A stretch of 64,000 nt of DNA from Candidatus Doudnabacteria bacterium RIFCSPHIGHO2_01_FULL_46_14 (GCA_001779925.1 MFEK01000010.1:19377-83376), one strand, 5' to 3'. Counted from the stretch's first letter, positions 1,021 to 52,602 are shown. Notes: a model not told the origin generated them from the sequence alone. Numbers and translations are program-made.

Positions 1021-2535
1021 ATGCCACAGTTTAAGCAAGTCATCCTTATTATTCTCGACGGCTGGGGGTATAGAGAAGATACAAAGCACAATCCTATTGC
1101 CGCGGCAAAAAAACCGTTTTTTGATTATCTCTGGAAAACCTATCCGCATGCTCTTCTGGAAGCGTCCGGCGAAGCAGTGGGATTGCCGCCGGGAACTCTC
1201 GGCGGCAGTGAGGTCGGGCATACCACCATCGGTGCTGGGCGGGCCATGGATACGGATCTGGCGCGAATCAACAAATCGTTTGCGGCAGGCGAGGCTAAAA
1301 CCAACCCGGCTTTTGCCGGTTTGTTTGAGCATGTCAAAAAACATAACTCGATCCTGCACATCCTCGGCATGGTCAGTGACAAAGGCGTTCATGCGCACCA
1401 GGAGCATTTGTTTGAATTTCTAAAAGCCGCACATGACGCCGGAATAAAAAAAATCGCGATTCATGCTTTTACGGACGGACGGGATACGCCGCCCCAGAGT
1501 TCGGATAATTATATCCGAGAGCTCGAGGATATTCTGGAAAAAATCGGTGTGGGCCGCATTGCCACAGTCTCGGGAAGATATTATGCCATGGACCGCGACA
1601 AAAATTGGGACCGTATCGAAAAGGTGGAGCACGTCATGTTTCACGGCAAAGGGCAAGCACATACCGGCCGTCCGTCCAAGGTCATCAAGATGCTTTATGA
1701 GCAGGGTCTGACTGACGAACATTTTGAGCCAATGGTGTTCGTGGATGACTCTGGTAAAAGTCTGACTGTTCAGGCAAACGACGGCTTGTTCTTTTTTAAC
1801 TATCGCCCTGACCGCGCGCGGCAAATCAGCCAAAAAATTCTCGAACGCGCTCACGCTCAGAACCTTTGCTTTGTAACCATGACTGAATACGACGAGAGTT
1901 TTCAGTGCCTGGTGGCTTTTGAAAGCAAACCTGTAGAAACCACTCTGGCTTCGGAAATTTCCAAAGCAGGGTTCACTCAGGCCCACATCGCGGAAACCGA
2001 CAAATACGCCCACCTTACATATTTTCTCAATGGCGGCCGCGAGGAACCACACGATAAAGAAGAGTTTGTGCTCGTCGATACCAGAAAAGACGTGAAAACC
2101 CATGACCTGGCTCCGGAAATGCGAGCAAGCGTTATCGCTGACGAGGCGATCGCGAGAATTAAAAATCAGGTCAATTTTATTGCCATCAATTTTGCCAATC
2201 CTGACATTGTCGGGCACAGCGGCAATTTTAAGGCCATGGTAAAAGCGATTGAAACGGTTGATGCCGAGGTTAAGAGAGTTGTGGAAGCCGCCCTCGCAAA
2301 CCACGCGGTCGTCCTAATCACCGCAGATCATGGCAACGCAGAGATTAGTCATGATGAGGAGGTTGGCCAAAATCACACCGCGCATACCTTGAGTCCAGTG
2401 CCCGTGATTTTGACAATAAAAAATCTCAAACTAAAAAACGGCACTCTGGCCGATATTGCCCCAATGATTTTGAAATTATTTAATCTACCAATCCCCTCCT
2501 CCATGACCGGATCCCCTCTTTTTCCCTCCCCTTGA
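1021..2535 (+). CDS. gpmI: 2,3-bisphosphoglycerate-independent phosphoglycerate mutase
   Basis: MPQFKQVILIILDGWGY... and ...NFANPDIVGHSGNF... iPGM motifs; start set to ATG 1021 inside track ORF 982..2535; the last codons (PSP-stop) are encoded by repeat R1. Confidence 0.9.
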   Translation: MPQFKQVILIILDGWGYREDTKHNPIAAAKKPFFDYLWKTYPHALLEASGEAVGLPPGTLGGSEVGHTTIGAGRAMDTDLARINKSFAAGEAKTNPAFAGLFEHVKKHNSILHILGMVSDKGVHAHQEHLFEFLKAAHDAGIKKIAIHAFTDGRDTPPQSSDNYIRELEDILEKIGVGRIATVSGRYYAMDRDKNWDRIEKVEHVMFHGKGQAHTGRPSKVIKMLYEQGLTDEHFEPMVFVDDSGKSLTVQANDGLFFFNYRPDRARQISQKILERAHAQNLCFVTMTEYDESFQCLVAFESKPVETTLASEISKAGFTQAHIAETDKYAHLTYFLNGGREEPHDKEEFVLVDTRKDVKTHDLAPEMRASVIADEAIARIKNQVNFIAINFANPDIVGHSGNFKAMVKAIETVDAEVKRVVEAALANHAVVLITADHGNAEISHDEEVGQNHTAHTLSPVPVILTIKNLKLKNGTLADIAPMILKLFNLPIPSSMTGSPLFPSP

Positions 2536-2563
2536 TGGGGAGGGACTGAGGAAGGGGTGAAAA
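2524..2563. repeat. GC-rich palindromic repeat family A, locus R1 (single unit: palindrome CCCTCCCC-TTGAT-GGGGAGGG plus GGGTGAAAA tail)
   Basis: Direct reading; the same unit recurs about 26 times in the window; the TGA in the core is the gpmI stop. Confidence 0.85.
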
Positions 2564-2567
2564 TACC

Positions 2568-4134: not shown

Positions 4135-4280
4135 GTCTAAAACTCCTCCTGCTTTCTTGGAATTCTCTTCAGGTTGTATTTGCCAAAAAACGGCACCTTA
4201 AGAGACTTTAAACTATAGCACAAATACCGCAAAAAAACAAGAGCCGACGGCCGGCACAAGCGATAAATACCAAAATTATT

Positions 4281-4372
4281 CCTCCCCCTTGAGGGGGGAG
4301 GTTAGGTGGGGGTGAAAAACAACTCTTTATTACCACCCCTCCCTCAATCCCTCCCCCTCAAGGGGAGGGAAA
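4281..4372. repeat. repeat family A, locus R2 (inverted pair, tails inward)
   Basis: cctcccccttgaggggggagg-ttaggtgggggtgaaaaa ... ccacccctccctcaat-ccctccccctcaaggggaggg. Confidence 0.85.
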
Positions 4373-16992: not shown

Positions 16993-17943
16993 TTATTGTT
17001 TGGTCAAAGCCTCCCTGTATGCAACTAGAACTTTCTGTCCGTGGGAGCCCGGATGGAATGACAGCTCATTGTCAGAAACAAGAATGTTCTCCTGCCTGCG
17101 GATGCGGTGCTTTTGATAGATTCCGAGCAGGTAATTCAAAACCGGAGCGATCGTATAGTCCAGGATCAACTCTAAAATCTTACCCGCGACGCTGAATCGA
17201 AAATCGAAAAATGGCACTGCCCTCTCGTACCGAACATTCGGCAGATAGCCTTTTATCCATTGGTTTTTTTGCCAAAATCTCTTGAGTGTATCGCCGCCGA
17301 TCACCGGCAGGAGACTGGCGTATTCGACCGCGGTATAAAGATTGCGATCATCGGTAATCTCGGTATCGTCCGCCAAATAATGGTTGAGGCAAAATCGGCC
17401 AGCAATTCTTTCCGCATACCTCCGCTGTCCCACCAGCTGAAAATATGCCGAAACCAGCGCGCGGGTCAGCCAAATGCGATTTTTTTTTGTGATGATAAAA
17501 AGATCAATGTCTGATCCGGACTCAGAGTTGAGTAGCGCCTGGGAGCCGGACAGGGCCACGGCCCGCACATATGGCAGGTGCCGCAAAAAACGCAAATATT
17601 TTTTGGTTTTGGCAAATCGCAGCAGCGAGATCTGGTAGCGGTGCTTTCTCTCGGCGATCAATTCTGCGCGACCGCGCAAAAAATACAGGCCTTCGCGATG
17701 CTCGACTTTGCCGGATAATTCTACGGTAATCGTGCTTTCGATTTCAGACAGGATTTCACCCCCACCTTTATCCTCCCCCCTCAAGGGGGAGGAATGGGAA
17801 CCGGTCCCCGCTTTTCCCTCCCCTTGAGGGGGAGGGACCGAGGGAGGGGTGTGAATTAGATAATTTTTCAGTTCCAGGCCCGTCAGCGCCATATCCTGCG
17901 TGTCAAAAAAAACCAGAGTGCTATAGGCTGAATTTTTCTGCAT
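16993..17943 (-). CDS. nucleotidyltransferase (Pol-beta superfamily, MNT-type GS...SDIDL) domain protein
   Basis: LSGSQALLNSESGSDIDLFIIT motif; start chosen at MQKNSAY (17943); repeat locus R3 translated in-frame near the N-terminus. Confidence 0.5.
   Translation of the reverse strand: MQKNSAYSTLVFFDTQDMALTGLELKNYLIHTPPSVPPPQGEGKAGTGSHSSPLRGEDKGGGEILSEIESTITVELSGKVEHREGLYFLRGRAELIAERKHRYQISLLRFAKTKKYLRFLRHLPYVRAVALSGSQALLNSESGSDIDLFIITKKNRIWLTRALVSAYFQLVGQRRYAERIAGRFCLNHYLADDTEITDDRNLYTAVEYASLLPVIGGDTLKRFWQKNQWIKGYLPNVRYERAVPFFDFRFSVAGKILELILDYTIAPVLNYLLGIYQKHRIRRQENILVSDNELSFHPGSHGQKVLVAYREALTKQ
17754..17855. repeat. repeat family A, locus R3 (inverted pair, tails outward) inside NTase CDS
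   Basis: tttcacccccacctttatcctcccccctcaagggggagg ... ttttccctccccttgagggggagggaccgagggaggggtgtgaa; encodes ...PPSVPPPQGEGKAGTGSHSSPLRGEDKGGGE... Confidence 0.85.
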
Positions 17944-18268
17944 CAATTTCTTTCCACTCATCCTCCATGTCATTCCATTTATAAACCTTGAAAGTATTGA
18001 CCAATTCGCTGTCGGAAAATTTATATTCCACACGTGCTCCCTGCCCCTGCTGATGACTGTAGTGGTACTTTTTCCCCTCCACCTTGGGCTTTTGGCCAAA
18101 CTGCAGTTTCATGCGCCCCAGTGGCCCCTCGAAAACAACAAACTCGGCTACCCCGAGCTTGACCGGTCCGTCACCGGTTTCGTGAATGAGATCTTCAGTG
18201 CCTTGATCCTCAAGCGCAAACTGCTTTTTCACGATATCTTTGATTTGTTCCCATTTTTCTGGTGTCAT
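17921..18268 (-). CDS. hypothetical protein (115 aa)
   Basis: ORF immediately upstream of and overlapping NTase gene. Confidence 0.4.
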   Translation of the reverse strand: MTPEKWEQIKDIVKKQFALEDQGTEDLIHETGDGPVKLGVAEFVVFEGPLGRMKLQFGQKPKVEGKKYHYSHQQGQGARVEYKFSDSELVNTFKVYKWNDMEDEWKEIDAEKFSL

Positions 18269-26491: not shown

Positions 26492-26525
26492 TCACCCTCT
26501 CCTACCTCTCCCATCAAGGGAGAGG
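26492..26525. repeat. repeat family A, locus R6 (variant; immediately upstream of DUF559 start)
   Basis: tcaccctctcctac-ctctccc-atcaa-gggagagg; inverted relative to R5. Confidence 0.7.
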
Positions 26526-30190: not shown

Positions 30191-30201
30191 AATAAAATCA
30201 G

Positions 30202-30576: not shown

Positions 30577-30622
30577 TTTTCCCTCCCCTCAATGGGAAGG
30601 GATTGAGGGGAGGGGTGTATAA
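30577..30622. repeat. repeat family A, locus R9 (variant)
   Basis: ttttccctcccctcaatgggaagggattgaggggaggggtgtataat; its 3-prime end creates a TATAAT box 10 bp before the next gene. Confidence 0.75.
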
Positions 30623-30632: not shown

Positions 30633-31262
30633 ATGAATATTTTCAGCAATTTAAATACTTCCGAATTGAGAGTCTTTCAAAGGCTCAACTCCCCTGCCAA
30701 GATTCAGGACTATCTGGAAACGATCCCGATCAATTTTGAACGAAACGGACAGACATGCTATTCACCGAGGCAGGTTTTGAAGTTTAATCGCGCGCACTGC
30801 ATGGAGGGGGCGATGCTGGCCGCCACTATCCTCTATTTCCACGGTCATAAGCCGCTCATTGTAGACCTACGCGCTCACAAGCGCGACCGAGATCATGCTA
30901 TTGCGGTTTTTAAAGTCGGCGGCAAATGGGGCGCCATCTCCAAAACCAACCACGCAGTGCTGAGATATCGCGAACCGATCTATAACTCCATCCGCGAACT
31001 CGTTATGTCGTATTTCCACGAATATTTCCTGGACAACGGAAAAAAAACTTTGCGCAGTTACAGCCTGCCAGTGGACTTATCAAAATTTGATTCCAAAAAT
31101 TGGATCACTTCCCCGCAAGACCTCTGGTATATTGATAAGTATTTAAACCAAGTCCACCACATCCCTATTCTAAATAAAAAGCAGATCGCATCTCTGCGAT
31201 CTGCTGACAGAATTGAAATCCAGGCAGGCAAACTCACCGCTCAGAAGAAAAATCAGAACTAG
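30633..31262 (+). CDS. hypothetical protein (209 aa) with conserved Cys/His (..NRAHCMEGAMLAATILYFHG..)
   Basis: Start at ATG 30633 (MNIFSNL); no family assigned. Confidence 0.4.
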   Translation: MNIFSNLNTSELRVFQRLNSPAKIQDYLETIPINFERNGQTCYSPRQVLKFNRAHCMEGAMLAATILYFHGHKPLIVDLRAHKRDRDHAIAVFKVGGKWGAISKTNHAVLRYREPIYNSIRELVMSYFHEYFLDNGKKTLRSYSLPVDLSKFDSKNWITSPQDLWYIDKYLNQVHHIPILNKKQIASLRSADRIEIQAGKLTAQKKNQN

Positions 31263-34329: not shown

Positions 34330-35238
34330 TTAACTTAAAATTTCCTGTAAAAGCGCCATCCGCAGATACAGACCGTTTTTAACCTGGGCAAAATATTTAG
34401 CATTGGGGAGGCTGTCTACCTCCATGGCGATTTCATCAATGCGCGGCAAGGGATCGAGCACCACCACGTCTTTATCCTTGAGCATGTCTGCAGTAAGAAT
34501 CAATGCGCGGCGATACTTTTCAAATTCATTCTTCTCCGCAAAACGTTCCTCTTGCAGACGGTTCATGTATAACACATCTGCGTCCAAACCGGATTTGAGA
34601 TCCGCTGTTTCGGTAAGCTGAATGCCTCGCTGCTTTAACTTTTCCAAAAAATCCGGAGCGGCGCGCAAGCTCTCAGGAGAAATGAAAGTCAGCTTATTCC
34701 CACGATACAAACTGAGCAGCAACGCCAGCGAACGAATTGTTCGCGAGTGTTTCGGGTCGCAAGCCAATGCGACGTGCAAATTATCAAGTCGGCCTGTTTC
34801 CCTTTTAATCGTATAAAGGTCATTTAGAGCCTGGGTCGGATGTTCATTTGCACCGTCTCCGGCATTGATCAAAGGTATGTCAGAAACTTTTGCGGCCGCT
34901 TCCGCACTCCCCTCTTTGGAATGTCTGAATACTACGGCATCGGCATATTGATTAACTACACGAATGATGTCCTCAAGCGGCTCACCCCGCGCCGCTTTCG
35001 TGGATTCCATGGCATTTTCCGCGCTGATCACGCCTGCCCCGAGTTTCAAAGCAGCGGCCTCGAACGACAGACGGGTGCGAGTGCTCGGCTCAAAAAATAA
35101 AGTAGCGACAATTTTCCCAGCCAGCGTTTGAGGAATTTTGCCTTTGTCATCCGCCGCCTGCATCCTGTCAGCCAATTTGAAAAGTTTTTCTAGTTCTTTC
35201 GTGTCTGTGAATTGCTCAGCTTTCAAAATATGTTTCAT
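34330..35238 (-). CDS. pyrB: aspartate carbamoyltransferase catalytic subunit
   Basis: FFEPSTRTRLSFE, HPTQAL, ...LHVALAC... motifs. Confidence 0.9.
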   Translation of the reverse strand: MKHILKAEQFTDTKELEKLFKLADRMQAADDKGKIPQTLAGKIVATLFFEPSTRTRLSFEAAALKLGAGVISAENAMESTKAARGEPLEDIIRVVNQYADAVVFRHSKEGSAEAAAKVSDIPLINAGDGANEHPTQALNDLYTIKRETGRLDNLHVALACDPKHSRTIRSLALLLSLYRGNKLTFISPESLRAAPDFLEKLKQRGIQLTETADLKSGLDADVLYMNRLQEERFAEKNEFEKYRRALILTADMLKDKDVVVLDPLPRIDEIAMEVDSLPNAKYFAQVKNGLYLRMALLQEILS

Positions 35239-38200
35239 GATTTATTATATTCCTGCCACGATTTAATTTTCAAGTCTTCCAATTTATAGGTCGTCAGAGC
35301 GCGGACAAAGGCGCGCGCGAGAAACAGATCCGTAAACAGTGGGGTGTTATTGTCCACGGTTGCCCGGCGAATGAGATGCCCGTCGGTAATGGTTGAGGCG
35401 ACATTACGCTGTTCATCAGGACTGCGCTCCGTCAGGTTAATCACAAACGCGACCTTTTTTTGGTTGATAAATTCCAGGACATTCAGCTTTCGCGATTCGT
35501 GGACTTTGTAGACTTTGGAGCATTTTACCCCGGATTTATTGAAAAAGTCGCACGTAGTATCAGTCGCGTAAATTTTAAATCCAGCTCTGAGAAGCGCTTT
35601 CGCGCTTTCCAAAAACCGTTTTTTGTTCATGATGCCGCCGAGGGACAAGAGCACGGCTTTTTTGTTGATAAACGGCACGGTAGCATAAACAGATTTGAGA
35701 AGGGCTTCGTCCGCATCATCACCAAAACACGCGACCTCGCCGGTGGAAGCCATTTCCACATGCAGGAGCGGATCCGCGCCTGCAAGCCTGGCAAAAGAAA
35801 ACTGCGGCGATTTTACTACAACGCTACTAGGATAAGGGATTTCAATCCTACGACTTTTACCATAGAACGAGGCCACGATCATTTCCGCAAAATTAACACC
35901 GGTGGCCTTGGAAAGAAGCGGAAAGGTTCGGGACGCGCGGAGGTTTGCTTCAATCACGTAAACCCGGTTGTCTTTGACCAAAAACTGCACGTTTAATGGC
36001 CCGGTGATGGTGAGGGCGCGAGCCAGGGCGGCCCCGACCTTCATGATCTTCTGTTCCGTGGAAGCAAAAACCCGCTGGGTCGGATAAACAATCGTCGCAT
36101 CTCCGGAATGCACGCCCGCATTTTCAATGTGTTCGGAGATAGCTTGCACCTGAATGCGGCCATTTTGCGCGACCGCGTCAAGCTCGATCTCCCGCGCGCT
36201 CGTGAAAAATTTGGAAATAGTCACAGGATGGGTCTTGTTAAGAGTCGTTGCTTTATTTACAAACCATTCCAGCTCGTGCTCATTGTAACAAACTGACATT
36301 GCCGACCCGGAGAGCACGTATGAGGGACGCACCAAAACCGGATAGCCCACCTCGCTTGCAAACTTTTGCGCCTCGGCCATATCCGTAAAACTGTTCCAGC
36401 GCGGCTGGGGGATGGCAAGCCTGTCTAGCAGCGCGGAAAATTTATTACGGTCTTCCGCCCGATCAATATTTTCGGCCGCGGTGCCGAGAAGTTTCGCCCC
36501 ATATTCAGAAAGAGCGTTGGCCAGGTTGTTCGGCGCCTGGCCGCCGACCGACACAACCACGCCTTCGGGTTTTTCAAAATCGAGAATCTCGGTCACTGTT
36601 TCAAATGACAGCTCCTCGAAATAGAGCCTTGCCGACATGTCGTAGTCCGTAGAAACTGTTTCCGGATTGCAATTAATAATGATCGACTGCCTGCCGTATT
36701 TCGGAAGCGCAAGCGCGGTATGGACGCACGACCAGTCAAACTCTACGGACGAACCAATATGATATGGGCCGGAACCCAAAACCACCACGCTTTTTTTACC
36801 AAGGGCCCTCACATCATGGTGCGAACCATTATAGGTCAAGTAAAGATAATTGGTTTTCGCCGGTACCTCGCCTGCCAGCGTGTCGATCTGAAATACCGAG
36901 GGCGTAACACGCAGTTTTTTGCGAAGCTTGCGGATCTCTGTTTCCGGCACATTCCTGATATGCGCTATGCGACGATCAGAAAACCCGAGTTGTTTGAGGT
37001 GCCAAAGCTCGTCTGTTTCCAGTTTCTTATTTCTGGCAAGTCCGAGCTCGGCCTCGACAATATTTTTAACGCGATAAAGAAACCATGGATCAATCCCAGT
37101 CAGAGCTTTGATTTTCCTGATCGGCACATTGCGTTTTATGGCTGAAGCCAGGGCAAATAGACGCTTTGGCGTGGGCACGCGCAAATAGCGCTCAAGCTCT
37201 TCCGGAGAAAAATTATTATCCGTTACGCCTTCCACACGGCCATGGAGCATGCGCACGGCTTTCTGCAGAGCCTCCTCAAACGTGCGGCCAACGGCCATAA
37301 CCTCGCCCACGCTCTTCATGGCACTGCCGATTTTTTCCTCGGCCCCGCGGAATTTTTCCAAATCCCAGCGCGGGATTTTCACTACTACGTAATCAAGCGC
37401 TGGTTCAAAAAAAGACTGGGTAACCTTTGTAACTTGATTCTGTACATCAAGAAGAGATTTTCCAAGGGCAAGTTTCGCGGCTACGTATGCGAGCGGATAA
37501 CCCGTGGCTTTCGAAGCCAAAGCCGAAGATCGGGAGAGGCGGGCGTTGACCTCTATAACTTCAAAATCAAATCCACCCCCACCCCGCCTCCCCCCTCGAG
37601 GGGGAGGAATCCTTCTGTACTTCCCTCCCCTTGAGGGGGAGGGACTAAGGGAGGGGTGAGGGTTTACCGCATATTGAACGTTGCACTCGCCGACTATTCC
37701 CAAAGAACGCACGATTTTTATGGAAGCCTCGCGCAACAAATGATATTCGTCATTGGTCAGGGTCTGGCTCGGCGCCACCACAATCGAATCACCGGTATGG
37801 ATGCCGAGGGGATCGAGGTTTTCCATGTTGCAGACAGTAACGCAATTGTCATAGGCATCCCGAACCACTTCGTATTCAAGCTCTTTGTAGTGATGTAGAT
37901 ATTTTTCTACGAGAATTTGCGAGGAGATAGCGAGCGCGTCTCTTGCAATCTTTTCTAATTCCTCCCTACTCCGCGCCATCCCAGATTTTTGTCCACCGAG
38001 CGCATAAGCCGCTCTGACCATGACCGGGTAGCCAATATTTTTGGCAATCTTTAACGCCTGCGGTAAATTTGTAGCCGCCTTGCTTTTCGGCACGGAAATA
38101 TTTATTTTTTTCAAATGATCAGCAAATTTCTGACGATCTTCAGTAAGAACAATGGCCTCAATAGGGGTTCCGAGCACTGCTACGCCATATTTTTTCAGAA

Positions 38201-38546
38201 CGCCTTTTTTGTGCAAAGCCAGGCCGCAGTTGAGCGCAGTCTGTCCGCCAAATGACAGAAAAATTCCATCAGGCCGCTCTTTTTCTATCACCCGTTCCAC
38301 AAAATAGGGCGTAACCGGCAGGAAATAAATTTCGTCCGCAAGAAGCGGCGAGGTCTGAATGGTCGCAATATTGGGATTTACGAGAATGATTTTGATTCCT
38401 TCCTCCCGCAGAGCTTTCATTGCCTGGCTGCCAGAGTAATCAAACTCGCCTGCTTCGCCGATTTTCAGCGCGCCTGATCCCAGAACTAAAACTTTTTTTA
38501 TACCCCCTCTCCTTTCTAAGGAGAGGGTTGGGGTGAGGTCTCTCAT
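35235..38546 (-). CDS. carB: carbamoyl-phosphate synthase large subunit
   Basis: 1103 aa, two ATP-grasp halves + MGS-like domain; N-terminal 14 aa (MRDLTPTLSLERRGG) encoded by repeat R11; R10 in-frame after first ATP-grasp. Confidence 0.95.
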   Translation of the reverse strand: MRDLTPTLSLERRGGIKKVLVLGSGALKIGEAGEFDYSGSQAMKALREEGIKIILVNPNIATIQTSPLLADEIYFLPVTPYFVERVIEKERPDGIFLSFGGQTALNCGLALHKKGVLKKYGVAVLGTPIEAIVLTEDRQKFADHLKKINISVPKSKAATNLPQALKIAKNIGYPVMVRAAYALGGQKSGMARSREELEKIARDALAISSQILVEKYLHHYKELEYEVVRDAYDNCVTVCNMENLDPLGIHTGDSIVVAPSQTLTNDEYHLLREASIKIVRSLGIVGECNVQYAVNPHPSLSPSPSRGGKYRRIPPPRGGRRGGGGFDFEVIEVNARLSRSSALASKATGYPLAYVAAKLALGKSLLDVQNQVTKVTQSFFEPALDYVVVKIPRWDLEKFRGAEEKIGSAMKSVGEVMAVGRTFEEALQKAVRMLHGRVEGVTDNNFSPEELERYLRVPTPKRLFALASAIKRNVPIRKIKALTGIDPWFLYRVKNIVEAELGLARNKKLETDELWHLKQLGFSDRRIAHIRNVPETEIRKLRKKLRVTPSVFQIDTLAGEVPAKTNYLYLTYNGSHHDVRALGKKSVVVLGSGPYHIGSSVEFDWSCVHTALALPKYGRQSIIINCNPETVSTDYDMSARLYFEELSFETVTEILDFEKPEGVVVSVGGQAPNNLANALSEYGAKLLGTAAENIDRAEDRNKFSALLDRLAIPQPRWNSFTDMAEAQKFASEVGYPVLVRPSYVLSGSAMSVCYNEHELEWFVNKATTLNKTHPVTISKFFTSAREIELDAVAQNGRIQVQAISEHIENAGVHSGDATIVYPTQRVFASTEQKIMKVGAALARALTITGPLNVQFLVKDNRVYVIEANLRASRTFPLLSKATGVNFAEMIVASFYGKSRRIEIPYPSSVVVKSPQFSFARLAGADPLLHVEMASTGEVACFGDDADEALLKSVYATVPFINKKAVLLSLGGIMNKKRFLESAKALLRAGFKIYATDTTCDFFNKSGVKCSKVYKVHESRKLNVLEFINQKKVAFVINLTERSPDEQRNVASTITDGHLIRRATVDNNTPLFTDLFLARAFVRALTTYKLEDLKIKSWQEYNKS
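37573..37661. repeat. repeat family A, locus R10 (inverted pair) in-frame within carB
   Basis: ccacccccaccccgcctcccccctcgagggggagg...ttccctccccttgagggggagggactaagggaggggtgagg; encodes ...PSLSPSPSRGGKYRRIPPPRGGRRGGGGF... Confidence 0.85.
38500..38540. repeat. repeat family A, locus R11 (variant) at the carA/carB junction
   Basis: ataccccctctcctttctaaggagagggttggggtgaggtc; carA stop and carB start overlap (ATGA) at 38543-38546. Confidence 0.7.
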
Positions 38547-39646
38547 TCCAATTTCTTTATAAATTCATCGAAAATCCAGCCAGTGTCGAGCGGGCCGGGG
38601 TGAGACTCGGGATGAAACTGCACAGACATGAACGGCAAATGCTCGTGGATAATCCCTTCGTTGGTTTTGTCATTGACATTCACAAACCAAGCCCGAAAAC
38701 CTTTAGGGATTTTTTTGACCGCAAAACCGTGATTTTGCGTGGTGAGATAAGCGCGCTTAGTACCGACCAGAATGGCCCCGTGGTTTTGCCCGCGGTGGCC
38801 GAATTTTAGCTTATAAGTATCTCCGCCAGCGGCCAGAGTGAGAATCTGGTTACCAAGACAAATACCGAGAATGGGAATTTTTTTTTCTAAAGCAATTTTG
38901 GTAATCGCAATCGTTCTCGTGGCCATCTTCGGATCGCCCGGGCCATTGGAAATAACTATACCGTCAAACTTTAACCGCTTGGCAAAAATATCATAGTCCC
39001 AAGGCACAACTGTCACGCGGATTTTTCTTTTGACCAGTTCGCGGATAATATTCTGTTTTACGCCGCAATCGAAAACCACAACTGTCTTTCGTCCGGAACC
39101 GGATTTTACTATTCGTTTTGTGGAGACCTCTGCAACCAAGTTACGCAAATTAGGATCTGCAAAATCACCCCCACCTAACCTCCTCCCTCGAGGGGGAGGA
39201 ATCCGCGATTTTCCCCTCCCTGGAGGGGAGGGGTTGGGGGAGGGTGAAAATGAGATTTTGCCTAGCATTACACCCTTTTCCCGCAATTTTTTCGTAAGCG
39301 CTCTGGAGTCTTTGATTTCCAGGGCTGGGATATTTTCCGCAGCTAGCCACTGCGCTAACGTCCGCCGCGAAGAATAATGCGACGGCGTATCTATATAATT
39401 AGATACTATCAATCCCGAAACTTTGATGCTGGCTGATTCCCAAACTTTTTTGTCTGGCACGCCATAGTTCCCGACCAGCGGATAAGTGAGTACCAAAATC
39501 TGCCCTTGATACGACGGATCAGTGAGGCTTTCCGGATATCCAACCATTCCCGTGGCAAAAACCACCTCACCAGAAACACTCCTCCGCGCACCGAAGCTGG
39601 TCCCGATTAATTCGGTATTATCTTCTAAAATTAGGCGTCCTAGCAT
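38543..39646 (-). CDS. carA: carbamoyl-phosphate synthase small (glutamine amidotransferase) subunit
   Basis: GATase triad region ...GICLGNQ...; R12 in-frame (..SPSPNPSPPGRGKSRIPPPRGRRLGGGDF..). Confidence 0.9.
   Translation of the reverse strand: MLGRLILEDNTELIGTSFGARRSVSGEVVFATGMVGYPESLTDPSYQGQILVLTYPLVGNYGVPDKKVWESASIKVSGLIVSNYIDTPSHYSSRRTLAQWLAAENIPALEIKDSRALTKKLREKGVMLGKISFSPSPNPSPPGRGKSRIPPPRGRRLGGGDFADPNLRNLVAEVSTKRIVKSGSGRKTVVVFDCGVKQNIIRELVKRKIRVTVVPWDYDIFAKRLKFDGIVISNGPGDPKMATRTIAITKIALEKKIPILGICLGNQILTLAAGGDTYKLKFGHRGQNHGAILVGTKRAYLTTQNHGFAVKKIPKGFRAWFVNVNDKTNEGIIHEHLPFMSVQFHPESHPGPLDTGWIFDEFIKKLE
39165..39250. repeat. repeat family A, locus R12 (inverted pair) in-frame within carA
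   Basis: tcacccccacctaacctcctccctcgagggggagg...ttcccctccctggaggggaggggttgggggagggtgaaaa. Confidence 0.85.
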
Positions 39647-41016: not shown

Positions 41017-42186
41017 CTATTGATTATCATGTATTTCTAACGGGGCGAGTCTATGATTTGCTCCAACAACTTCTTTAACTGACCGAAATCCATCAGCTTC
41101 CAATAATTTTACCAAACCCCGTTTAATTTTTTTCGGCAACGAAGGACCTTCATAAATCATACCCGTATAAATTTCCACGAGGCTTGCGCCAGCGCGGATC
41201 TTTTCGTACGCATCCTCAGCGGAAAAAATCCCCCCTGCTCCGATTATCGGTACTCGGCCTTCAAGCTTTTTGTAAAGATAACCGATCACTTCAGTAACTC
41301 TCTTGGCAATCGGGCGGCCAGACAAACCGCCCCCGCCCATGCCCTCAGTGGCAGCGGTATTAGTCGCAATAACCCCGTCAATCTTTGTTTCCAAAACAAT
41401 CTCTGCAATATCATCAAGCTCACCGTCAGTCAGATCAGGTGAGATTTTGAGAAGCAAAGGCCGCCACCCCCACCTAACCTCCTCGCCTCGCCTTCGCTCG
41501 GACGAAGCGGGCCCCCTCAAAGGGGAGGAATTCGTTTGTATTTCCCTCCCCTCGAGGGGGAGGGCTGGGGAGGGGTGATTCAATTTCTGTAATTCCATAA
41601 GCAAATTCCTCAGCTCCTCTTTCCCCTGTAATTCCCGCAGTCCCGGTGTATTTGGAGAACTAACATTGACCACCACATAGTCGGCCAAGGGCGCTAATTC
41701 TGTAAATCCCGTGGCATAATCGCGCAGAGCCTCCTCGTTCGGCGTAATTTTATTTTTTCCTAGATTGACCCCGATCACAAAATCGCGCTTCTCAAGTCTT
41801 TTCAAATTTTTCGCCACTGCCATTGCGCCCATGCTGTTAAATCCCATCCGGTTGATGATCGCCTTATCCGCATCCAGACGAAATAGTCGTGGTTTGGGAT
41901 TGCCCGGCTGCGGCTCAGGGGTCACAGTCCCCACTTCAATAAACCCAAACCCGAGCGCGGCCATGAACCGCGCAAAGCCGCCGGATTTATCATAGCCAGG
42001 TGCAAGGCCGATCGGATTTTTGAATCTGACTCCAAAGACTTCAGTCTCAAGCGATGGATGTTCGTACCGAAACAACGGCGAAAACACTTCGGAAAGTCCC
42101 GAAAAATTCCTGCCCAAAGCCGCCACAGCATTGTGCATGGTTTCTGGCTGGATAGTAAATAAAATCGGCCGCAAAAGTTTATACAT
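41017..42186 (-). CDS. pyrD: dihydroorotate dehydrogenase (class 2-like, with N-terminal extension)
   Basis: FKNPIGLAPGYDKSG..., FIEVGTVTPEPQPGNPKPRLFRL; R13 in-frame. Confidence 0.85.
   Translation of the reverse strand: MYKLLRPILFTIQPETMHNAVAALGRNFSGLSEVFSPLFRYEHPSLETEVFGVRFKNPIGLAPGYDKSGGFARFMAALGFGFIEVGTVTPEPQPGNPKPRLFRLDADKAIINRMGFNSMGAMAVAKNLKRLEKRDFVIGVNLGKNKITPNEEALRDYATGFTELAPLADYVVVNVSSPNTPGLRELQGKEELRNLLMELQKLNHPSPALPLEGREIQTNSSPLRGPASSERRRGEEVRWGWRPLLLKISPDLTDGELDDIAEIVLETKIDGVIATNTAATEGMGGGGLSGRPIAKRVTEVIGYLYKKLEGRVPIIGAGGIFSAEDAYEKIRAGASLVEIYTGMIYEGPSLPKKIKRGLVKLLEADGFRSVKEVVGANHRLAPLEIHDNQ
41464..41578. repeat. repeat family A, locus R13 (inverted pair; first unit with nested hairpin insertion) in-frame within pyrD
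   Basis: cacccccacctaacctcctcgcc[tcgccttcgctcggacgaagcgg]gccccctcaaaggggagg...tttccctcccctcgagggggagggctggggaggggtga. Confidence 0.85.
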
Positions 42187-46150: not shown

Positions 46151-46328
46151 ACGAAAAACGGCCTCTGTTTGAGGCCGCCTGACAAAGTTCGTAAAAACTT
46201 TTACAATTTACAAGCGCTAGCAAATAACCTCAAACAGGGAACCGTTTGAGTGACGCAACATTTGATGCTGTGGAATATTTGCTTCATATTTTGATTATAT
46301 TCCTCTATTATAGACCCGTCAAAGTTAA

Positions 46329-46369
46329 TTCACCCCTCCCTCAATCCCTCCCCCTCAAGGGGAGGGAAG
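46329..46369. repeat. repeat family A, locus R14; supplies the last codons and stop of gene 46355..46852
   Basis: ttcacccctccctcaatccctccccctcaaggggaggg; minus-strand reading gives ...RFLPSP-stop. Confidence 0.85.
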
Positions 46370-46852
46370 AAAACGGGGATCATATCGCTTTACTAACTCG
46401 AAACTCCCAAACATCACTCCTGCATAAAACAAATCCCCGAGGAGAGTATTACGGAAAAATGGGAGGGCGTTTAGGTAGGATTGGATTTGGCCGGAAAGAT
46501 CATGGCTGTACATAGTTGGCTCGTAAAGGAAAACTAAGTTTGTAATTAGATAAAAGAGAGCAGAGCTGGCCACTGTACCGCCAATCATATTTAGCACACT
46601 CTTATTATTTCTCAGCCATAAACCAATAAGCCCTGACAAAATAAAACTGCTGTAAACCGTGGCTCGCGACTGCCACGAATCAAATCCAATAAAATAATCT
46701 GAAACGACCATGGCGGCGACTGGTACAAGCAATGCAAATTTTTTATTGAGATAAGTGCCGCCGAACAATGCGATAGCAGAAATAGGAGCGAAGTTTGCTG
46801 GGTGAGGCAGGAATCTTAAAATGGCACCAATGAGGACTAAAATATACTCCAT
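46355..46852 (-). CDS. small multi-TM membrane protein (DUF6580-like)
   Basis: ...LRFLPHPANFAPISAIALFGGTY... N-terminus; 5 TM. Confidence 0.45.
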   Translation of the reverse strand: MEYILVLIGAILRFLPHPANFAPISAIALFGGTYLNKKFALLVPVAAMVVSDYFIGFDSWQSRATVYSSFILSGLIGLWLRNNKSVLNMIGGTVASSALFYLITNLVFLYEPTMYSHDLSGQIQSYLNALPFFRNTLLGDLFYAGVMFGSFELVKRYDPRFLPSP

Positions 46853-49495: not shown

Positions 49496-49531
49496 TCTCT
49501 CCCCCTCGTGAGGGGGATCTGGAGGGGGTTA
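49496..49531. repeat. repeat family A, locus R15 (abuts stop codon of DUF559 gene 2)
   Basis: tctctccccctcgtgagggggatctggagggggtta. Confidence 0.75.
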
Positions 49532-49909
49532 TCATAAATTTAGCTTGTGAATTAAATCATCAAAGACACCGGAAGTATTGTGCATGATATCACGATTACT
49601 GTATCTAACAATCTGGCAACCTAGTGATTTCAGATAATTTTCTCTCATAATATCATTCCCCATTGTGGAGGCTTCTGCATGCGTATCGCCATCAATCTCG
49701 ATAATATATTTTTTTTCTGGACAATAAAAATCGACTACATAATCTCCAATTGCATGCTGGCGCCGGAATTTTAAATTATAGAACTGCTTGCCCCCAACTT
49801 TGGTCCAGAATATTTGTTCTGCAGGGGTCATATCGCGACGCAATCTTCTGCGTATGGAAATGGTTTTTGGAGAACCTGATTTTGGCCCGCGAGATTGATT
49901 GAATTTCAT
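49532..49909 (-). CDS. DUF559 (Vsr-like endonuclease fold) protein, paralog 2
   Basis: ...HAIGDYVVDFYCPEKKYIIEIDGDTH...LGCQIVRYSNRDI... Confidence 0.7.
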   Translation of the reverse strand: MKFNQSRGPKSGSPKTISIRRRLRRDMTPAEQIFWTKVGGKQFYNLKFRRQHAIGDYVVDFYCPEKKYIIEIDGDTHAEASTMGNDIMRENYLKSLGCQIVRYSNRDIMHNTSGVFDDLIHKLNL

Positions 49910-49943
49910 AACCTCCCCTAACCCCTCCTCACGAGGAGGGGAA
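49910..49943. repeat. repeat family A, locus R16 (abuts start codon of DUF559 gene 2; inverted relative to R15)
   Basis: aacctcccctaacccctcctcacgaggaggggaa. Confidence 0.75.
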
Positions 49944-49951: not shown

Positions 49952-52483
49952 CTACCCGCACTTACTGAACCCGCAGAGGTCGCATTTGAGGCATCCCTCG
50001 GCCATCATCAGCATATTGCCGCAATCCGGACAGGCCGGAGCGTGGCCGAGATTGGCAATGGAGGTTTTGACTTCTAGTTCTGCCTCGCCAGAACTCCCCC
50101 CCGCCCCCTCTTTGGTAAAAGAGGGGGAGACTGATTCAACCTGAGGCGTTTCGTCTTTTCCGAATTTCAGCCCCAGCTCTGTCTGGCCGCGCTTGATGTG
50201 GCTTTCCAAAACCTGGCCGATGGCATCCGGCAGAGAATGAATCGTGCCGCCATTGGCAAAGATAATGTCCGGGCCGCGGATGCCTTTGAGCTGATCGATT
50301 ATTTCCGTGGTCGCAGTGCCGGTGCGCAGAGCCAGGGAAATGAGTCGGCAGATCGCTTCAGTCTGCGCGTGGAAAAAACCGCCCGCTTTGCCAAGACTGG
50401 AGAAGACCTCAAACGGGCCGTGCTCGTCCTCGTTGATCGTCACAAACAGATTGCCGTACGAGGTACGCGTGCGGTAAGTCACGCCCCGCATCACATCCGG
50501 CCGCTCACGCGGAATGGTTTTGTAATTGTTCGAGCCGTTGACGATTTTAGCACTTAAAATTTGCTCGACTTTTTCGGCAACCTTATTTTCTCCCATAGAA
50601 GCTGACATGCTCATGTGTTCCATGCCTGGGGCAAGCGATTTGGCTTTATCGAGGTTCTTATTGAGGTTCAGTACCTGGACTTCGCGTGAGCCATCGCGGT
50701 ACAAGGTGCAGCCTTTGCAGCCCAGTTTCCAGGCCATGATATAGCCATCCTCAATGTCCTGAACAGTGGCTTCATGCGGAAAATTGATGGTTTTGGAAAT
50801 GGAGTTCTCTACGTATTTCTGGAACGCGCCCTGAGCTTTGATGTGATCCTGCGCGGAAATATCCATGGCCACGCGGAACGTATCTTTGACCTCTTGAGGA
50901 ATCCCCGCGATATTTTCCACAGATCCTTCCTGGATAATCTGATTTTTAATTTCTTCCGAGATGCCATGCTTGACGAGGGCGGCTTCCAGATAGCGGTTCA
51001 AATATTTATAAGTATGGCCATCTTTGTCCTGTTTGGTAAAAGCCAGGGCAAAGTTCGGCTCAATCCCGGAACTGGTATCAAAGAACATGGAGATTGAACC
51101 GGTCGGTGCAACTGTGGTGACCATGGTGTTGCGCCGTTTTATGCCCTGGATGGCCCAGGTCGAGTGTTCCCACAAAGGAAATTCTGCTTTTTCCGCGGCC
51201 AGGGCGACAGATGTGTTGTGCGATGACTCCTGAATGGTTTTCATGACCAGCTCACCGGTTTCAAAGCCCTTATCAGAATCATAACGCACATTCATTTGGT
51301 AAAGCATATCTGCATAACCCATGACGCCGAGGCCGAGTCTGCGGGTATTGTGGGACATCTCCTGCACCTCGCGCACCGGGTAGTCGAACAGATCAATGAC
51401 ATTGTCGAGAAAACGCGTGGACACCATGGACACATGCTCGAGGCGCTTGAGATCCAGCTGGCCGTCTTTTACAAAAGCCGCGAGATTGATCGAGCCAAGA
51501 TTGCAGACATCATAAGGCGGCAGACCCTGCTCGCCGCACGGATTGGTGGCCTCGATCGGGGTTTTCGGCATGGTGTTGCCGCGGTTGAACGCATCGAGAA
51601 ATATGACTCCCGGCTCGCCATTGTGCCAGGCATTCTGCACGATCTCATTGTAAAGCTCTTTGGCGGTCATATTGAGCTCTTCGATATTTACGACCACGCC
51701 AAAACGGTCGCGGGTGATACGCCGCGGCTTCATTTTTTCGCCCTGGAAGCGGCAGTACCACTGCTCATTGGGCCGCTCGCTCACCGCTTTCATGAATTCA
51801 TCAGTCATGCCCACGCTGATGTTAAAATTGCGAATGTCACCTTCCACGCGCTTGCAATGCACAAAATCGAGAATATCCGGATGATCAACCGGCAAAATCG
51901 CCATGTTCGCGCCATGCCTGCCCTGCTGTTTTATCACGCCAAAGGCCTGGTTGTAGACTTGCAGGAACGAAACCGGACCAGAGGCCATCCCTACCGAGGC
52001 TTTGACCACAGTGCCGGCAGGCCTGAGCCTGCCAAAAGAAAAACCCAAACCGCTACCGGCTTTTTGGAGGAGCGCCGCGTCCTTCAAAGTCTTGAAAATC
52101 CCTTCCATGCTGTCCTCGATAGGGAGGACTATGCAGTTAGCCACGACCGGCGAAGGTGCGCCGGCATTGGTAATGGTCCGGCCGGCCGGCGTAAACTCTT
52201 TGTGAGCCACAATCTCAAAAAATTCTTTTTCCCAGTAGCGGATCTTATCGGCAGGAAGGCCGTAGTTTTTGTCAGCACCGGCTACCGCATGGGCAATGCG
52301 GTGGATCATTTCAGCCGGGGTTTCCTGGGTGCCATCCTCGCGTTTTACGAGGTAGCGCTTTTTCATCATCCGCAGGGCATTCTCGGAAAAAGAATCATTT
52401 ACTTTTTTTGCCAAATCCGCGCTCAAAAAATCGCAGTTTTGGATTTCGACCATTATTTCTTTTCTTTTGGTTTGTGTGGCCAT
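49952..52483 (-). CDS. nrdJ: ribonucleotide reductase, class II (adenosylcobalamin-dependent) type
   Basis: N-terminal ...SENALRMMKKRYLVKREDGTQETPAEMIHRIAHAVA...; active-site NPCGEQ; C-terminal CxxC...CxxCxxC tail; no nrdB nearby; R17 in-frame in the C-terminal tail. Confidence 0.8.
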   Translation of the reverse strand: MATQTKRKEIMVEIQNCDFLSADLAKKVNDSFSENALRMMKKRYLVKREDGTQETPAEMIHRIAHAVAGADKNYGLPADKIRYWEKEFFEIVAHKEFTPAGRTITNAGAPSPVVANCIVLPIEDSMEGIFKTLKDAALLQKAGSGLGFSFGRLRPAGTVVKASVGMASGPVSFLQVYNQAFGVIKQQGRHGANMAILPVDHPDILDFVHCKRVEGDIRNFNISVGMTDEFMKAVSERPNEQWYCRFQGEKMKPRRITRDRFGVVVNIEELNMTAKELYNEIVQNAWHNGEPGVIFLDAFNRGNTMPKTPIEATNPCGEQGLPPYDVCNLGSINLAAFVKDGQLDLKRLEHVSMVSTRFLDNVIDLFDYPVREVQEMSHNTRRLGLGVMGYADMLYQMNVRYDSDKGFETGELVMKTIQESSHNTSVALAAEKAEFPLWEHSTWAIQGIKRRNTMVTTVAPTGSISMFFDTSSGIEPNFALAFTKQDKDGHTYKYLNRYLEAALVKHGISEEIKNQIIQEGSVENIAGIPQEVKDTFRVAMDISAQDHIKAQGAFQKYVENSISKTINFPHEATVQDIEDGYIMAWKLGCKGCTLYRDGSREVQVLNLNKNLDKAKSLAPGMEHMSMSASMGENKVAEKVEQILSAKIVNGSNNYKTIPRERPDVMRGVTYRTRTSYGNLFVTINEDEHGPFEVFSSLGKAGGFFHAQTEAICRLISLALRTGTATTEIIDQLKGIRGPDIIFANGGTIHSLPDAIGQVLESHIKRGQTELGLKFGKDETPQVESVSPSFTKEGAGGSSGEAELEVKTSIANLGHAPACPDCGNMLMMAEGCLKCDLCGFSKCG
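50094..50129. repeat. repeat family A, locus R17 (variant) in-frame in nrdJ tail
   Basis: ctcccccccgccccctctttggtaaaagagggggag; encodes ..SPSFTKEGAGGSSGE.. Confidence 0.7.
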
Positions 52484-52519
52484 GTGATTTTAATTAATAA
52501 TTGATAAGTTTTTCTCTGG

Positions 52520-52602
52520 TTCCCCTCCCTCGAGGGGAGGGGTAAGGGGAAGGTGATATTTAATTTTCCACCCCCACCTAACCTCCCCCCTCAAGGAGGA
52601 GG
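52520..52602. repeat. repeat family A, locus R18 (inverted pair, tails inward) between nrdR and nrdJ
   Basis: ttcccctccctcgaggggaggggtaaggggaaggtga...ttccacccccacctaacctcccccctcaaggaggagg. Confidence 0.85.

What the first reader, a model, noticed from the sequence alone, without database searches (positions are those of the whole stretch)
2524..52602. Abundant ~38-nt GC-rich palindromic repeat family (about 26 units, 18 loci) inserted in-frame inside essential genes (RPE-like)
The unit is about TTTCACCCCCACCTAACC + CCTCCCCC-TCAA-GGGGGAGG. It is found at R1 2524, R2 4281, R3 17754, R4 25677, R5 26092, R6 26492, R7 27677, R8 30062, R9 30577, R10 37573, R11 38500, R12 39165, R13 41464, R14 46329, R15 49496, R16 49910, R17 50094 and R18 52520. 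It occurs as single units or inverted pairs, with tails inward or outward. The loop varies (TTGA, TCAA, TCGA, CGTGA, TGGA) while the stem is kept, which suggests selection on the hairpin. Two units (R8, R13) carry a nested secondary hairpin insertion. Copies lie in-frame within carA, carB, pyrD, hisS, nrdJ, comEC and an NTase gene, where they add 10-35-aa P/G/R/S/E-rich segments to otherwise full-length proteins. That pattern is described for Rickettsia palindromic elements but not for this sequence family. Density is roughly 1 per 3.5 kb.
Basis: seen in the sequence. Interest (0 to 1): 0.9.

Follow-up and report, generated by a model that had tools for sequence, protein, structure and literature searches.

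The report
Triplex-motif repeats inserted inside genes
A groundwater Candidatus Doudnabacteria genome is peppered with a variant of the long-known but unexplained BoxC/PIT/TMECO "triplex-motif" repeat; several copies sit in-frame inside intact housekeeping genes, and across bacteria the same repeat forms both ends of a small cassette carrying an uncharacterised nuclease gene (DUF559), a candidate for the enzyme that handles these repeats.

Summary
About 24 units at 17 of the 18 listed loci belong to one family, far above chance, and the sequence is identical in five independent assemblies. Syntenic relatives and solved structures show that the copies in carB (two), carA, pyrD, hisS, comEC and an NTase gene are true in-frame insertions of 13-39 aa. 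The nrdJ copy is not supported.

The family is not new as a kind. The unit is a C-rich tail that mirrors the C-arm of an 8-9-bp hairpin. That is the architecture of BoxC / PIT / TMECO intrastrand-triplex repeats (Holder 2015), here as a sequence variant that fails the strict published pattern. Near-identical units occur in more than 15 phyla.

I found no report of the following. Both DUF559 (Vsr-like nuclease) genes in the window are bracketed by inverted units. In 80 independent metagenome DUF559 loci, a reverse unit lies upstream in 52/77 and a forward unit downstream in 45/78.

Best reading: a REP-like selfish repeat whose gene-carrying form is a DUF559 cassette. Intragenic copies survive only in-frame in tolerant loops. 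Mobilisation by DUF559 is inferred, not shown.

The parts
2522..2562 (-). Solo B-type unit. The loop TTGA supplies the stop codon (2533-2535) of the iPGM gene 982..2535.
4278..4371 (.). Intergenic dimer, A(-) 4278-4317 plus B(+) 4333-4371, tails inward. It has the same layout as the DUF559 cassette but without the ORF.
17754..17852 (.). Dimer A(+)/B(-), tails outward, in-frame in the NTase gene (ORF 16993..18099, - strand). It adds about 33 aa that are absent from L127.
25677..25765 (-). Divergent unit with a second palindrome nested in its loop, in-frame in comEC (24516..26069, -). It is part of an 84-nt insertion absent from L127.
26066..26491 (-). DUF559 (Vsr-like PD-(D/E)XK) nuclease gene 1. 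Its last residues (PPFPSPSRQGRG...) are encoded by the downstream unit.
26123..26157 (-). Unit at the 3' end of DUF559 gene 1 (right end of cassette 1; C-tail next to the gene, hairpin outermost).
26492..26528 (+). Unit directly upstream of DUF559 gene 1 (left end of cassette 1). The region 26066-27339 is absent from L126/L127.
27677..27724 (-). Single unit (C-tail, hairpin CCCCTCCTC/GAGGAGGGG, G-tail), in-frame in hisS (27308..28630, -). The 13 aa are absent from L126, L127 and PDB 6nhi.
30063..30193 (.). Intergenic dimer B(-)/A(+), tails inward. The B unit carries a 42-nt nested palindrome in its loop.
30579..30619 (-). Solo B-type unit upstream of the gene at about 30639..31262 (+).
37571..37659 (.). 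Dimer A(+)/B(-), tails outward, in-frame in carB (35235..38546, -), aa 296-326. The model gives pLDDT below 50 for aa 301-324.
38500..38540 (-). Divergent unit (CCCTCTCC/GGAGAGGG arms, GGGTGAGG tail; the copy closest to the E. coli type). It encodes carB residues 3-16, at the carA/carB junction.
39164..39249 (.). Dimer A(+)/B(-), tails outward, in-frame in carA (38543..39646, -), aa 133-161, in the linker between its two Pfam domains.
41465..41579 (.). Dimer A(+)/B(-), tails outward; the A unit holds a nested palindrome. In-frame in pyrD (41017..42186, -). The 117 nt / 39 aa are absent from L126/L127.
46328..46368 (+). Solo B-type unit overlapping the 3' end of the DUF6580 gene 46355..46852 (-).
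49497..49528 (-). Unit 3 nt downstream of DUF559 gene 2 (right end of cassette 2).
49532..49909 (-). DUF559 nuclease gene 2 (125 aa), between nrdJ and a NUDIX gene. L127 has a GIY-YIG gene at this position.
49910..49941 (+). Unit abutting the start codon of DUF559 gene 2 (left end of cassette 2).
50094..50135 (.). Membership in the family and insertion status are NOT supported.
52520..52605 (.). Intergenic dimer B(-)/A(+), tails inward, between nrdJ and nrdR.

Best explanation
The repeats are a Patescibacteria variant of the BoxC / PIT / TMECO intrastrand-triplex-motif repeat. Each unit consists of a pyrimidine tail, a short spacer, a pyrimidine arm, a conserved loop (A/G/C)TCAA, and a purine arm. 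The tail is the mirror image of the pyrimidine arm.

The repeats behave as a selfish, REP-like element. The gene-carrying form is a cassette of about 450 bp in which a DUF559 (Vsr-like PD-(D/E)XK) nuclease gene lies between two inverted units of different subtype. ORF-less derivatives are far more numerous. These are solo units, 'tails-inward' dimers (the cassette without its ORF) and 'tails-outward' dimers.

They invaded this Doudnabacteria lineage after it split from close relatives. Copies that landed in genes were kept only where the insert was a multiple of three, free of stop codons, and located in a tolerant loop or linker. There they are translated as disordered P/G/R/S-rich segments and inherited.

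Shown: family membership, insertion status, lineage-specific gain, hairpin and mirror covariation, and the DUF559 bracket.
Inferred: that the inserts are translated.
Inferred with about 0.4 probability: that DUF559 is the nuclease that recognises the folded unit and mobilises it in trans.
For: Family and excess over chance.

Insertions:
- They are absent from syntenic orthologs at protein and DNA level and from solved structures.
- L126 and L127 (40 kb, syntenic) hold no unit and no DUF559. The window holds about 24 units and 2 DUF559 genes.
- The carB and carA inserts are orthologous in L213 (CarB 86% identical). They differ there by -2/+2/+3-nt indels that restore the frame while changing the peptide (LSPSPSRGG versus PALPIKGRE). 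So the frame is selected, not the peptide.
- In the CarB model (pTM 0.85), residues 1-10 and 301-324 have pLDDT below 50 and no secondary structure.
- The elements are poor in stop codons: 32 of 78 frames are open, against about 23% for shuffled 90-mers.

Structure of the unit:
- Hairpin covariation.
- The tail mirrors the arm in 57 units and copies it directly in 2, among units found next to DUF559.
- This is the published triplex motif, with the same A+B inverted pairing as in E. coli.

DUF559 link:
- Both window genes are bracketed by units.
- DUF559 is the only ORF family that recurs next to units in 120 GTDB loci.
- In 80 metagenome loci chosen from the DUF559 core alone, a reverse unit lies within 80 nt upstream in 52/77 and a forward unit within 80 nt downstream in 45/78. 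Both are present in 35. The wrong orientation occurs in 4-5. Background is 0.16 hits per kb.
- The strict TMECO pattern sits directly upstream of DUF559 in about 19 of those loci, and 200 nt downstream of E. coli ycjD.
- The catalytic D...ExD..H residues are invariant. The fold is that of PDB 3HRL, 'endonuclease-like protein'.
- None of the 39 window ORFs scanned against Pfam is a transposase or RAYT.
Against: - No activity of DUF559 on these units has been shown, here or in the literature searched.
- Holder et al. reported no association of TMECO with mobile elements, and no stable triplex in vivo.
- Target-site duplications could not be resolved from the diverged empty sites.
- One Deinococcus cassette has the opposite polarity, with tails outward. 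E. coli ycjD has only vestigial or distant units.
- The 80 DUF559 loci are the closest relatives of the window gene (50-65% identity), so the bracket is not shown for all of PF04480.
- A bracket is also what a homing endonuclease that settles inside repeat dimers would produce.
- Translation of the inserts is inferred from frame conservation only.
Confidence: 0.65

Rival explanations
1. DUF559 is a free-standing homing endonuclease, or simply a passenger, that preferentially settles inside pre-existing unit dimers. For example, it could cut the spacer of an ORF-less dimer and be copied in by repair. The units themselves would spread by another route, such as an unseen transposase, template switching at folded DNA, or recombination.
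For: - Both cassettes sit in intergenic gaps that are empty in relatives. At the nrdJ-NUDIX gap, L127 carries a GIY-YIG nuclease gene instead. That is typical behaviour for free-standing homing endonuclease genes near RNR genes.
- ORF-less tails-inward dimers with 8-18-nt spacers exist and could serve as targets.
- The polarity of the bracket is not universal.
- Vsr-like nucleases include homing enzymes (my own knowledge, not tested here).
Against: - It does not explain how the units spread, or why a 38-nt sequence stays nearly identical across more than 15 phyla.
- The left and right units of cassettes are of consistently different subtypes, and the right one is read into the DUF559 C-terminus in a constant frame. 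This looks like one integrated element.
Confidence: 0.22
2. The units are host-useful structural DNA or RNA elements kept by selection for the host. Examples would be triplex- or hairpin-forming sites that modulate replication, recombination or mRNA stability. On this view the DUF559 association is incidental.
For: - The stem, mirror tail and loop are strongly conserved, with compensatory changes.
- Triplex formation of the E. coli motif in vitro, and raised local genome variability, are published.
Against: - Syntenic close relatives have none, so no conserved host function is tied to position.
- Copies sit inside coding regions at unrelated sites.
- Published tests found no promoter or terminator activity and no stable triplex in vivo.
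- G-U intermediates (8 cells) are no commoner than C-A (about 10). This argues against an RNA-level constraint.
Confidence: 0.1
3. The P/G/R/S-rich segments are ancestral low-complexity linkers of these proteins, or the repeats are an assembly artefact.
For: None found.
Against: - The segments are missing from syntenic orthologs and from solved structures.
- The same DNA unit occurs in intergenic DNA.
- The sequence is identical in five assemblies from different samples.
Confidence: 0.01

Closest known systems
BoxC / PIT elements / TMECO intrastrand triplex motif (E. coli and 262 proteobacterial genomes; Hoyne & Maher 2000; Holder et al. 2015, PMC4666352)
   Same: - Three-block architecture: C-rich arm, loop, G-rich arm, short second loop, and a second G-rich block that mirrors the first.
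- 8-9-nt blocks.
- Type A has TTA as its second loop.
- Dimers always pair one type A with one type B in inverted configuration.
- Presence/absence varies between relatives.
- No transposase is known.
   Different: - The strict published pattern gives 0 hits in the window. Arms are CCTCCCCC or CCCTCCCC rather than CCCTCNCCC, and the B-type second loop is 5 nt.
- The host is a CPR bacterium.
- Seven copies are intragenic and in-frame, whereas the E. coli copies are 'always intergenic'.
- The units are linked here to DUF559, whereas the paper found no link to mobile elements.
REP / BIME elements with RAYT transposases (REPtrons)
   Same: - Short GC-rich hairpin units.
- Mostly inverted dimers, in both polarities.
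- One or a few protein genes flanked by inverted units, against many ORF-less copies.
- Occasional intragenic dimers encoding 20-30 aa (PMC3733652).
   Different: - No GTAG or CGTC tag.
- The flanked gene is a PD-(D/E)XK / Vsr-like nuclease, not an HUH Y1 transposase.
- The unit has a third, mirror-image block.
Rickettsia palindromic elements (RPE)
   Same: In-frame insertion of palindromic repeats into unrelated housekeeping genes, which adds peptide segments without destroying the protein.
   Different: [quoted passage not shown] That they are confined to Rickettsiales is my own knowledge.
- Here the units are 38 nt (dimers 86-117 nt), occur in many phyla, and the peptide is not conserved: the reading frame differs between sites and between orthologous copies.
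Bacterial MITEs (e.g. Coxiella QMITE, Correia, Nezha)
   Same: Non-autonomous short elements with terminal inverted repeats, sometimes giving in-frame fusions (PMC10969869).
   Different: No IS-type parent with a transposase. The elements are G+C-rich rather than A+T-rich. No target-site duplications could be demonstrated.

Membership tests
BoxC / PIT / TMECO intrastrand triplex motif | Three consecutive blocks (Py arm, Pu arm, second Pu block) with mirror symmetry between the third block and the duplex | tested here: met
   The tail mirrors the arm more closely than it copies it directly in 57 units versus 2 among DUF559-flank units, and in 5 versus 0 among window seeds. Four covarying arm/tail types were seen.
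BoxC / PIT / TMECO intrastrand triplex motif | Published sequence pattern CCCTCNCCC N3-6 GGGNGAGGG N3 GGGNGAGGG | tested here: not met
   0 matches in the window. The pattern does match units beside DUF559 in about 19 metagenome loci and near E. coli ycjD. The window copies are therefore a sequence variant, not TMECO in the strict sense.
BoxC / PIT / TMECO intrastrand triplex motif | Inverted dimers that combine one type A with one type B unit | tested here: met
   All seven dimers in the window pair A with B. The same is reported for E. coli.
BoxC / PIT / TMECO intrastrand triplex motif | Strictly intergenic location (as in E. coli K-12) | tested here: not met
   Seven in-frame intragenic sites.
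BoxC / PIT / TMECO intrastrand triplex motif | Forms an intrastrand triplex as single-stranded DNA | not testable with these tools
   No triplex folding tool is available. Only the sequence requirement is met.
REP / RAYT (REPtron) | HUH Y1 (RAYT) transposase gene flanked by the repeats | tested here: not met
   No such domain in the 39 window ORFs scanned. The flanked gene is DUF559. The rest of the genome was not seen.
REP / RAYT (REPtron) | Unpaired GTAG or CGTC tag at one end of the hairpin | tested here: not met
   The unit consensus TCACCCC...GGAGGAAT has neither tag. The definition comes from PMC3733652.
Rickettsia palindromic elements | Sequence membership in RPE-1 to RPE-10 | not tested
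The comparison rests on behaviour only.
MITE | Terminal inverted repeats plus target-site duplication, derived from an IS | tested here: inconclusive
   Inverted ends are present. No duplication was recognisable at filled versus empty sites of diverged orthologs. No parent IS was found.
DUF559 / PF04480 (YcjD-like PD-(D/E)XK nuclease) | Pfam match above the gathering score, with conserved D...ExD..H residues | tested here: met
   141 bits and 102.9 bits against a cut-off of 20.6. The residues are invariant. PDB 3HRL matches at E = 1e-29.

The most novel reading that the evidence does not exclude
DUF559 / YcjD-like proteins are the dedicated structure-specific nucleases of BoxC/PIT/TMECO triplex-motif repeats. 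This would be a second, mechanistically different 'REPtron' system found across bacteria. A Vsr-like PD-(D/E)XK enzyme would recognise a folded hairpin-plus-mirror-strand (triplex) DNA and mobilise 38-nt units, including into coding regions. It would give a function both to a 30-year-old orphan repeat and to a widespread domain of unknown function.
Probability: 0.35. Interest if true: 0.85.

Novelty: new variant of a known kind. Interest (0 to 1): 0.62.

Why it matters
BoxC/PIT/TMECO repeats have been known since the 1990s. In the latest dedicated study they still have no function, no spreading mechanism and no partner protein (PMC4666352).

This window shows three things:
1. The kind extends far beyond Proteobacteria, into the Candidate Phyla Radiation and more than 15 phyla.
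2. It can colonise coding regions of core enzymes in a small genome, producing lineage-specific disordered loops in CarA, CarB, PyrD, HisRS and ComEC.
3. It is bracketed around DUF559 nuclease genes in a fixed geometry.

The third point turns 'what moves or reads these repeats?' into a direct experiment, because E. coli has both the repeats and a DUF559 gene (ycjD).

For annotators, it also explains the common 'PSP..GRG / TLTLPHQGGG' junk peptides and over-extended DUF559 ORFs.

Tried and rejected
- **Rfam.** No family reaches its gathering score or comes near it. The only hits on units are sub-threshold miRNA-hairpin matches.
- **Strict TMECO pattern.** 0 hits in the window.
- **Transposase or RAYT in the window.** None among the 39 ORFs scanned.
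- **nrdJ insertion (R17).** Rejected. The linker has the same length in L127, and there is no HMM hit.
- **Tail as a direct repeat of the arm (alternative hairpin).** Rejected in favour of a mirror repeat.
- **RNA-level structure.** Not favoured, because G-U intermediates are not enriched.
- **Intrinsic terminator.** Not favoured. No T-run follows the hairpin on either strand, copies lie inside long ORFs, and published tests found no terminator activity. I did not run the terminator scanner.
- **Target-site duplication.** I looked for it at five filled/empty site pairs. It cannot be called at about 70% nucleotide identity.
- **The search for related loci with a 7-sequence DUF559 alignment.** Failed because no conserved stretch was available. 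It was redone with 2 sequences.
- **Phages as carriers.** DUF559 occurs in only 2 of 50,697 phage records. 109 IMG/VR contigs carry a unit and 8 of these carry DUF559, but not adjacent to the exact-pattern unit.
- **PADLOC.** Only weak nuclease-domain hits, and no defence system.
- **P0004 contig DNA.** Unavailable.

Full report

The core hairpin occurs 8 times with up to 2 mismatches, against 0.02 expected. A pattern for the whole unit occurs 9 times against 0 expected. Reading the 18 listed loci and scanning with an HMM built from eight seed units gives 22 units on their best strand. Two divergent copies, R4 and R11, come in addition.

There are two subtypes:
- A: TTTCACCCCCACCTAACCTCCCCCCTCAAGGGGGAGGAAT
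- B: TTCACCCCTCCCTCAGTCCCTCCCCCTCAAGGGGAGGGAAA

Every dimer joins one A with one B. The polarity is either 'tails outward' (A+ then B-) or 'tails inward' (A- then B+, or the flipped equivalent). R4, R8 and R13 carry a second, unrelated palindrome nested in or next to the loop.

4.3-7.1-kb stretches of the window (35543-42646), which include three to five of the intragenic copies, are 99.96-100% identical, without gaps, in five assemblies from different samples. The repeats are therefore not an assembly artefact.

**2. Are the copies really inside genes?**

Pfam confirms the host genes as carB, carA, pyrD, hisS, nrdJ, comEC and a nucleotidyltransferase. The best CarB match names the organism as a Candidatus Doudnabacteria bacterium (CPR/Patescibacteria) from the Rifle aquifer.

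Alignments to solved structures break exactly at the repeats:
- CarB residues 297-327 correspond to a 2-residue gap in human CPS1.
- CarA residues 137-161 correspond to chain residues 178-180.
- PyrD residues 199-242 correspond to 7 residues.
- HisRS has a 13-residue gap.

Two syntenic relatives, L126 and L127 (CarB 78-80% identical, same gene order), lack the segments:
- 117 nt in pyrD
- 39 nt in hisS
- 84 nt in comEC
- about 33 aa in the NTase
- the carA insert (L126 has a different repeat at the same spot)
- the carB mid-gene insert

The carB N-terminal unit is absent from L127 but also present in L126.

R17 in nrdJ is not supported. It lies in a variable linker of equal length in L127 and is not an HMM hit.

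An AlphaFold model of CarB (60-sequence alignment, pTM 0.85) gives pLDDT below 50 and no secondary structure for residues 1-10 and 301-324, which are the two inserts. The rest folds normally.

**3. History of the inserts**

L126 and L127 (40 kb) contain no unit and no DUF559 gene. The family therefore entered or expanded after these lineages split.

The carB and carA inserts are orthologous in L213 (CarB 86% identical). There the element is about 88% identical, with -2, +2 and +3-nt indels that restore the frame inside the element while changing the peptide. Selection therefore keeps the frame open, not the peptide.

The elements are poor in stop codons: 32 of 78 frames are open, against about 23% for shuffled 90-mers. 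This makes survival inside ORFs plausible.

Across 119 Patescibacteria CarB proteins, 35 have at least 8 extra residues in this same loop. About 16 of them have unit-like PSP..GRG/GEG peptides, and the others come from other repeat families. The site is a recurrent, tolerant hotspot.

**4. What the unit is**

The units found are near-identical and come from Alpha-, Beta-, Gamma- and Deltaproteobacteria, Nitrospirae, Dehalococcoidia, Planctomycetes, Cyanobacteria, Bacteroidota, Spirochaetes, Atribacterota, Omnitrophota, Elusimicrobia and others.

The hairpin is kept by compensatory changes. Of all cells, 97.7% are paired. Six of 8 pairs show double changes, with 51 such cells against 17.3 ± 3.4 in shuffles (0 of 500 shuffles reach the observed value). 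G-U intermediates are no commoner than C-A, so the constraint looks strand-symmetric, that is, at DNA level.

The 5' tail is the mirror image of the C-arm, not a direct copy. It covaries with the arm in four types:
- arm CCCTCCCC with tail CCCCTCCC
- arm CCCCTCCC with tail CCCTCCCC
- arm CCCTCCCCC with tail CCCCCACCC
- arm CCTCCCCC with tail CCCCCACC

Among units found next to DUF559, the mirror fits better than a direct copy in 57 units and worse in 2. This is the sequence requirement for an intrastrand triplex.

The literature search then showed that this is the known BoxC / PIT / TMECO motif. The published findings are:
- 23 copies in E. coli K-12, always intergenic
- type A (second loop TTA) paired with type B
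- 3610 copies in 262 proteobacterial genomes
- triplex formation in vitro on single strands, but not demonstrated in vivo
- no promoter or terminator activity
- association with local genome variability
- no association found with transposons, phages or plasmids

The strict published pattern does not match the window. The window copies are a sequence variant of that kind. Rfam has no model for it.

**5. The DUF559 link**

The window has two DUF559 (Vsr-like PD-(D/E)XK) genes, at 26066..26491 and 49532..49909. Both are bracketed the same way: a reversed unit (hairpin, then G-tail) abuts the start, and a forward unit (C-tail, then hairpin) lies at or within the 3' end. Both cassettes lie in gaps that are differently filled or empty in L126/L127.

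Among the 120 GTDB loci chosen only by the unit, DUF559 is the only ORF family that recurs next to it.

The reverse test used 80 metagenome loci chosen only from two peptide patterns in the DUF559 core and confirmed with the 110-aa core:
- A reverse unit lies within 80 nt upstream in 52 of 77 loci.
- A forward unit lies within 80 nt downstream in 45 of 78 loci.
- Both are present in 35 loci.
- The wrong orientation occurs in 4-5 loci.
- Background is 0.16 hits per kb.
- Median gaps are 28 nt upstream and 11 nt downstream.

The canonical TMECO pattern itself sits directly upstream of DUF559 in about 19 of these loci, and 200 nt downstream of E. coli ycjD.

Variants exist:
- A Deinococcus plasmid cassette between paaD and paaZ has perfect 45-bp inverted ends of opposite polarity.
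- Azospirillum has only the upstream unit.
- Pseudanabaena has a C6/G6 version of the same architecture.
- E. coli ycjD keeps a degenerate unit.

The catalytic D...ExD..H residues are invariant, and the fold is that of PDB 3HRL. In the searchable literature, 25 papers mention DUF559 and 17 mention ycjD. None links them to repeats.

**6. Interpretation**

The anatomy parallels REP/BIME elements and their RAYT genes (REPtrons). There are many ORF-less hairpin units and inverted dimers, and a few protein genes flanked by inverted units. The protein, however, belongs to a different class, and the unit has a different fold.

Tails-inward dimers look like the cassette without its ORF. Tails-outward dimers, the form found inside genes, correspond to a right-end/left-end junction.

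I rate the overall reading (a selfish triplex-motif repeat with a DUF559-carrying form, and intragenic copies filtered by frame and location) at about 0.65. Within it, the specific claim that DUF559 mobilises the units stands at about 0.4. The main rival is that DUF559 is a homing endonuclease or passenger that settles in repeat dimers. That rival is supported by the GIY-YIG gene occupying the same nrdJ-proximal gap in L127. A host-function model is weak, because close relatives lack the units altogether.

**7. Limits**

- Only 64 kb of the genome was seen.
- The mirror statistic for the GTDB units is biased by the search pattern. The DUF559-flank set is less biased, but it was found with an HMM trained on those units.
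- The 80 DUF559 loci are the nearest relatives of the window gene.
- No target-site duplication could be read.
- Translation of the inserts, triplex formation and nuclease activity are all untested.

Noticed in passing
window 25700-25745, 30072-30113, 41486-41514: A second, unrelated palindrome family is nested inside the loops or arms of three units (R4, R8, R13). An example is CCCCGAAAGCG-TAAT-CGCTTTCGGGG. Folded units seem to be insertion targets for other repeats.
   Followed up: partly
CarB loop, window about 37560-37680; proteins P0001-P0120: 35 of 119 Patescibacteria CarB proteins carry at least 8 extra residues in this one loop, from several unrelated repeat families (GLTRN.., RLRQGYGGQ.., PSP..GRG). 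The native codons NPHP (AAC CCT CAC CCC) already resemble the unit's TCACCCC tail, which may guide insertion.
   Followed up: partly
L127 1906-2097 versus window 49532-49909: In the relative, a 63-aa GIY-YIG nuclease gene occupies the gap downstream of nrdJ where the window has the DUF559 cassette. Two different small nuclease genes occupy the same RNR-proximal site.
   Followed up: no
L185 42-513: A tandem array of eight reversed units, with a period of about 62 nt, lies directly upstream of a DUF559 gene in a 158-kb metagenome contig.
   Followed up: no
window 26569-27297 (-): A 242-aa ORF with no Pfam, NCBIfam or PADLOC hit lies next to DUF559 cassette 1. Together with the cassette it is absent from L126/L127.
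   Followed up: partly
window 28660-30630: A 2-kb segment with hisG-like and PRA-CH (hisI-like) genes is absent from both syntenic relatives. It is bordered on one side by the dimer at 30063-30193 and the unit at 30579-30619.
   Followed up: no
window 35235-39646: CarA and CarB score far better against human mitochondrial CPS1 (1090 bits) than against E. coli CarB (822 bits).
   Followed up: no
whole window: GC skew is negative in every 4-kb bin and most genes lie on the - strand. Orientation of units relative to transcription and relative to replication therefore cannot be separated here.
   Followed up: no
L211 707-830 (Pseudanabaena plasmid), L054 (Nostoc): Cyanobacteria carry a C6/G6 version of the same tail-plus-hairpin architecture (CCCCCCTAGCCCCCCAATTCTGGGGGG) beside DUF559. 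The architecture is conserved beyond the sequence.
   Followed up: no
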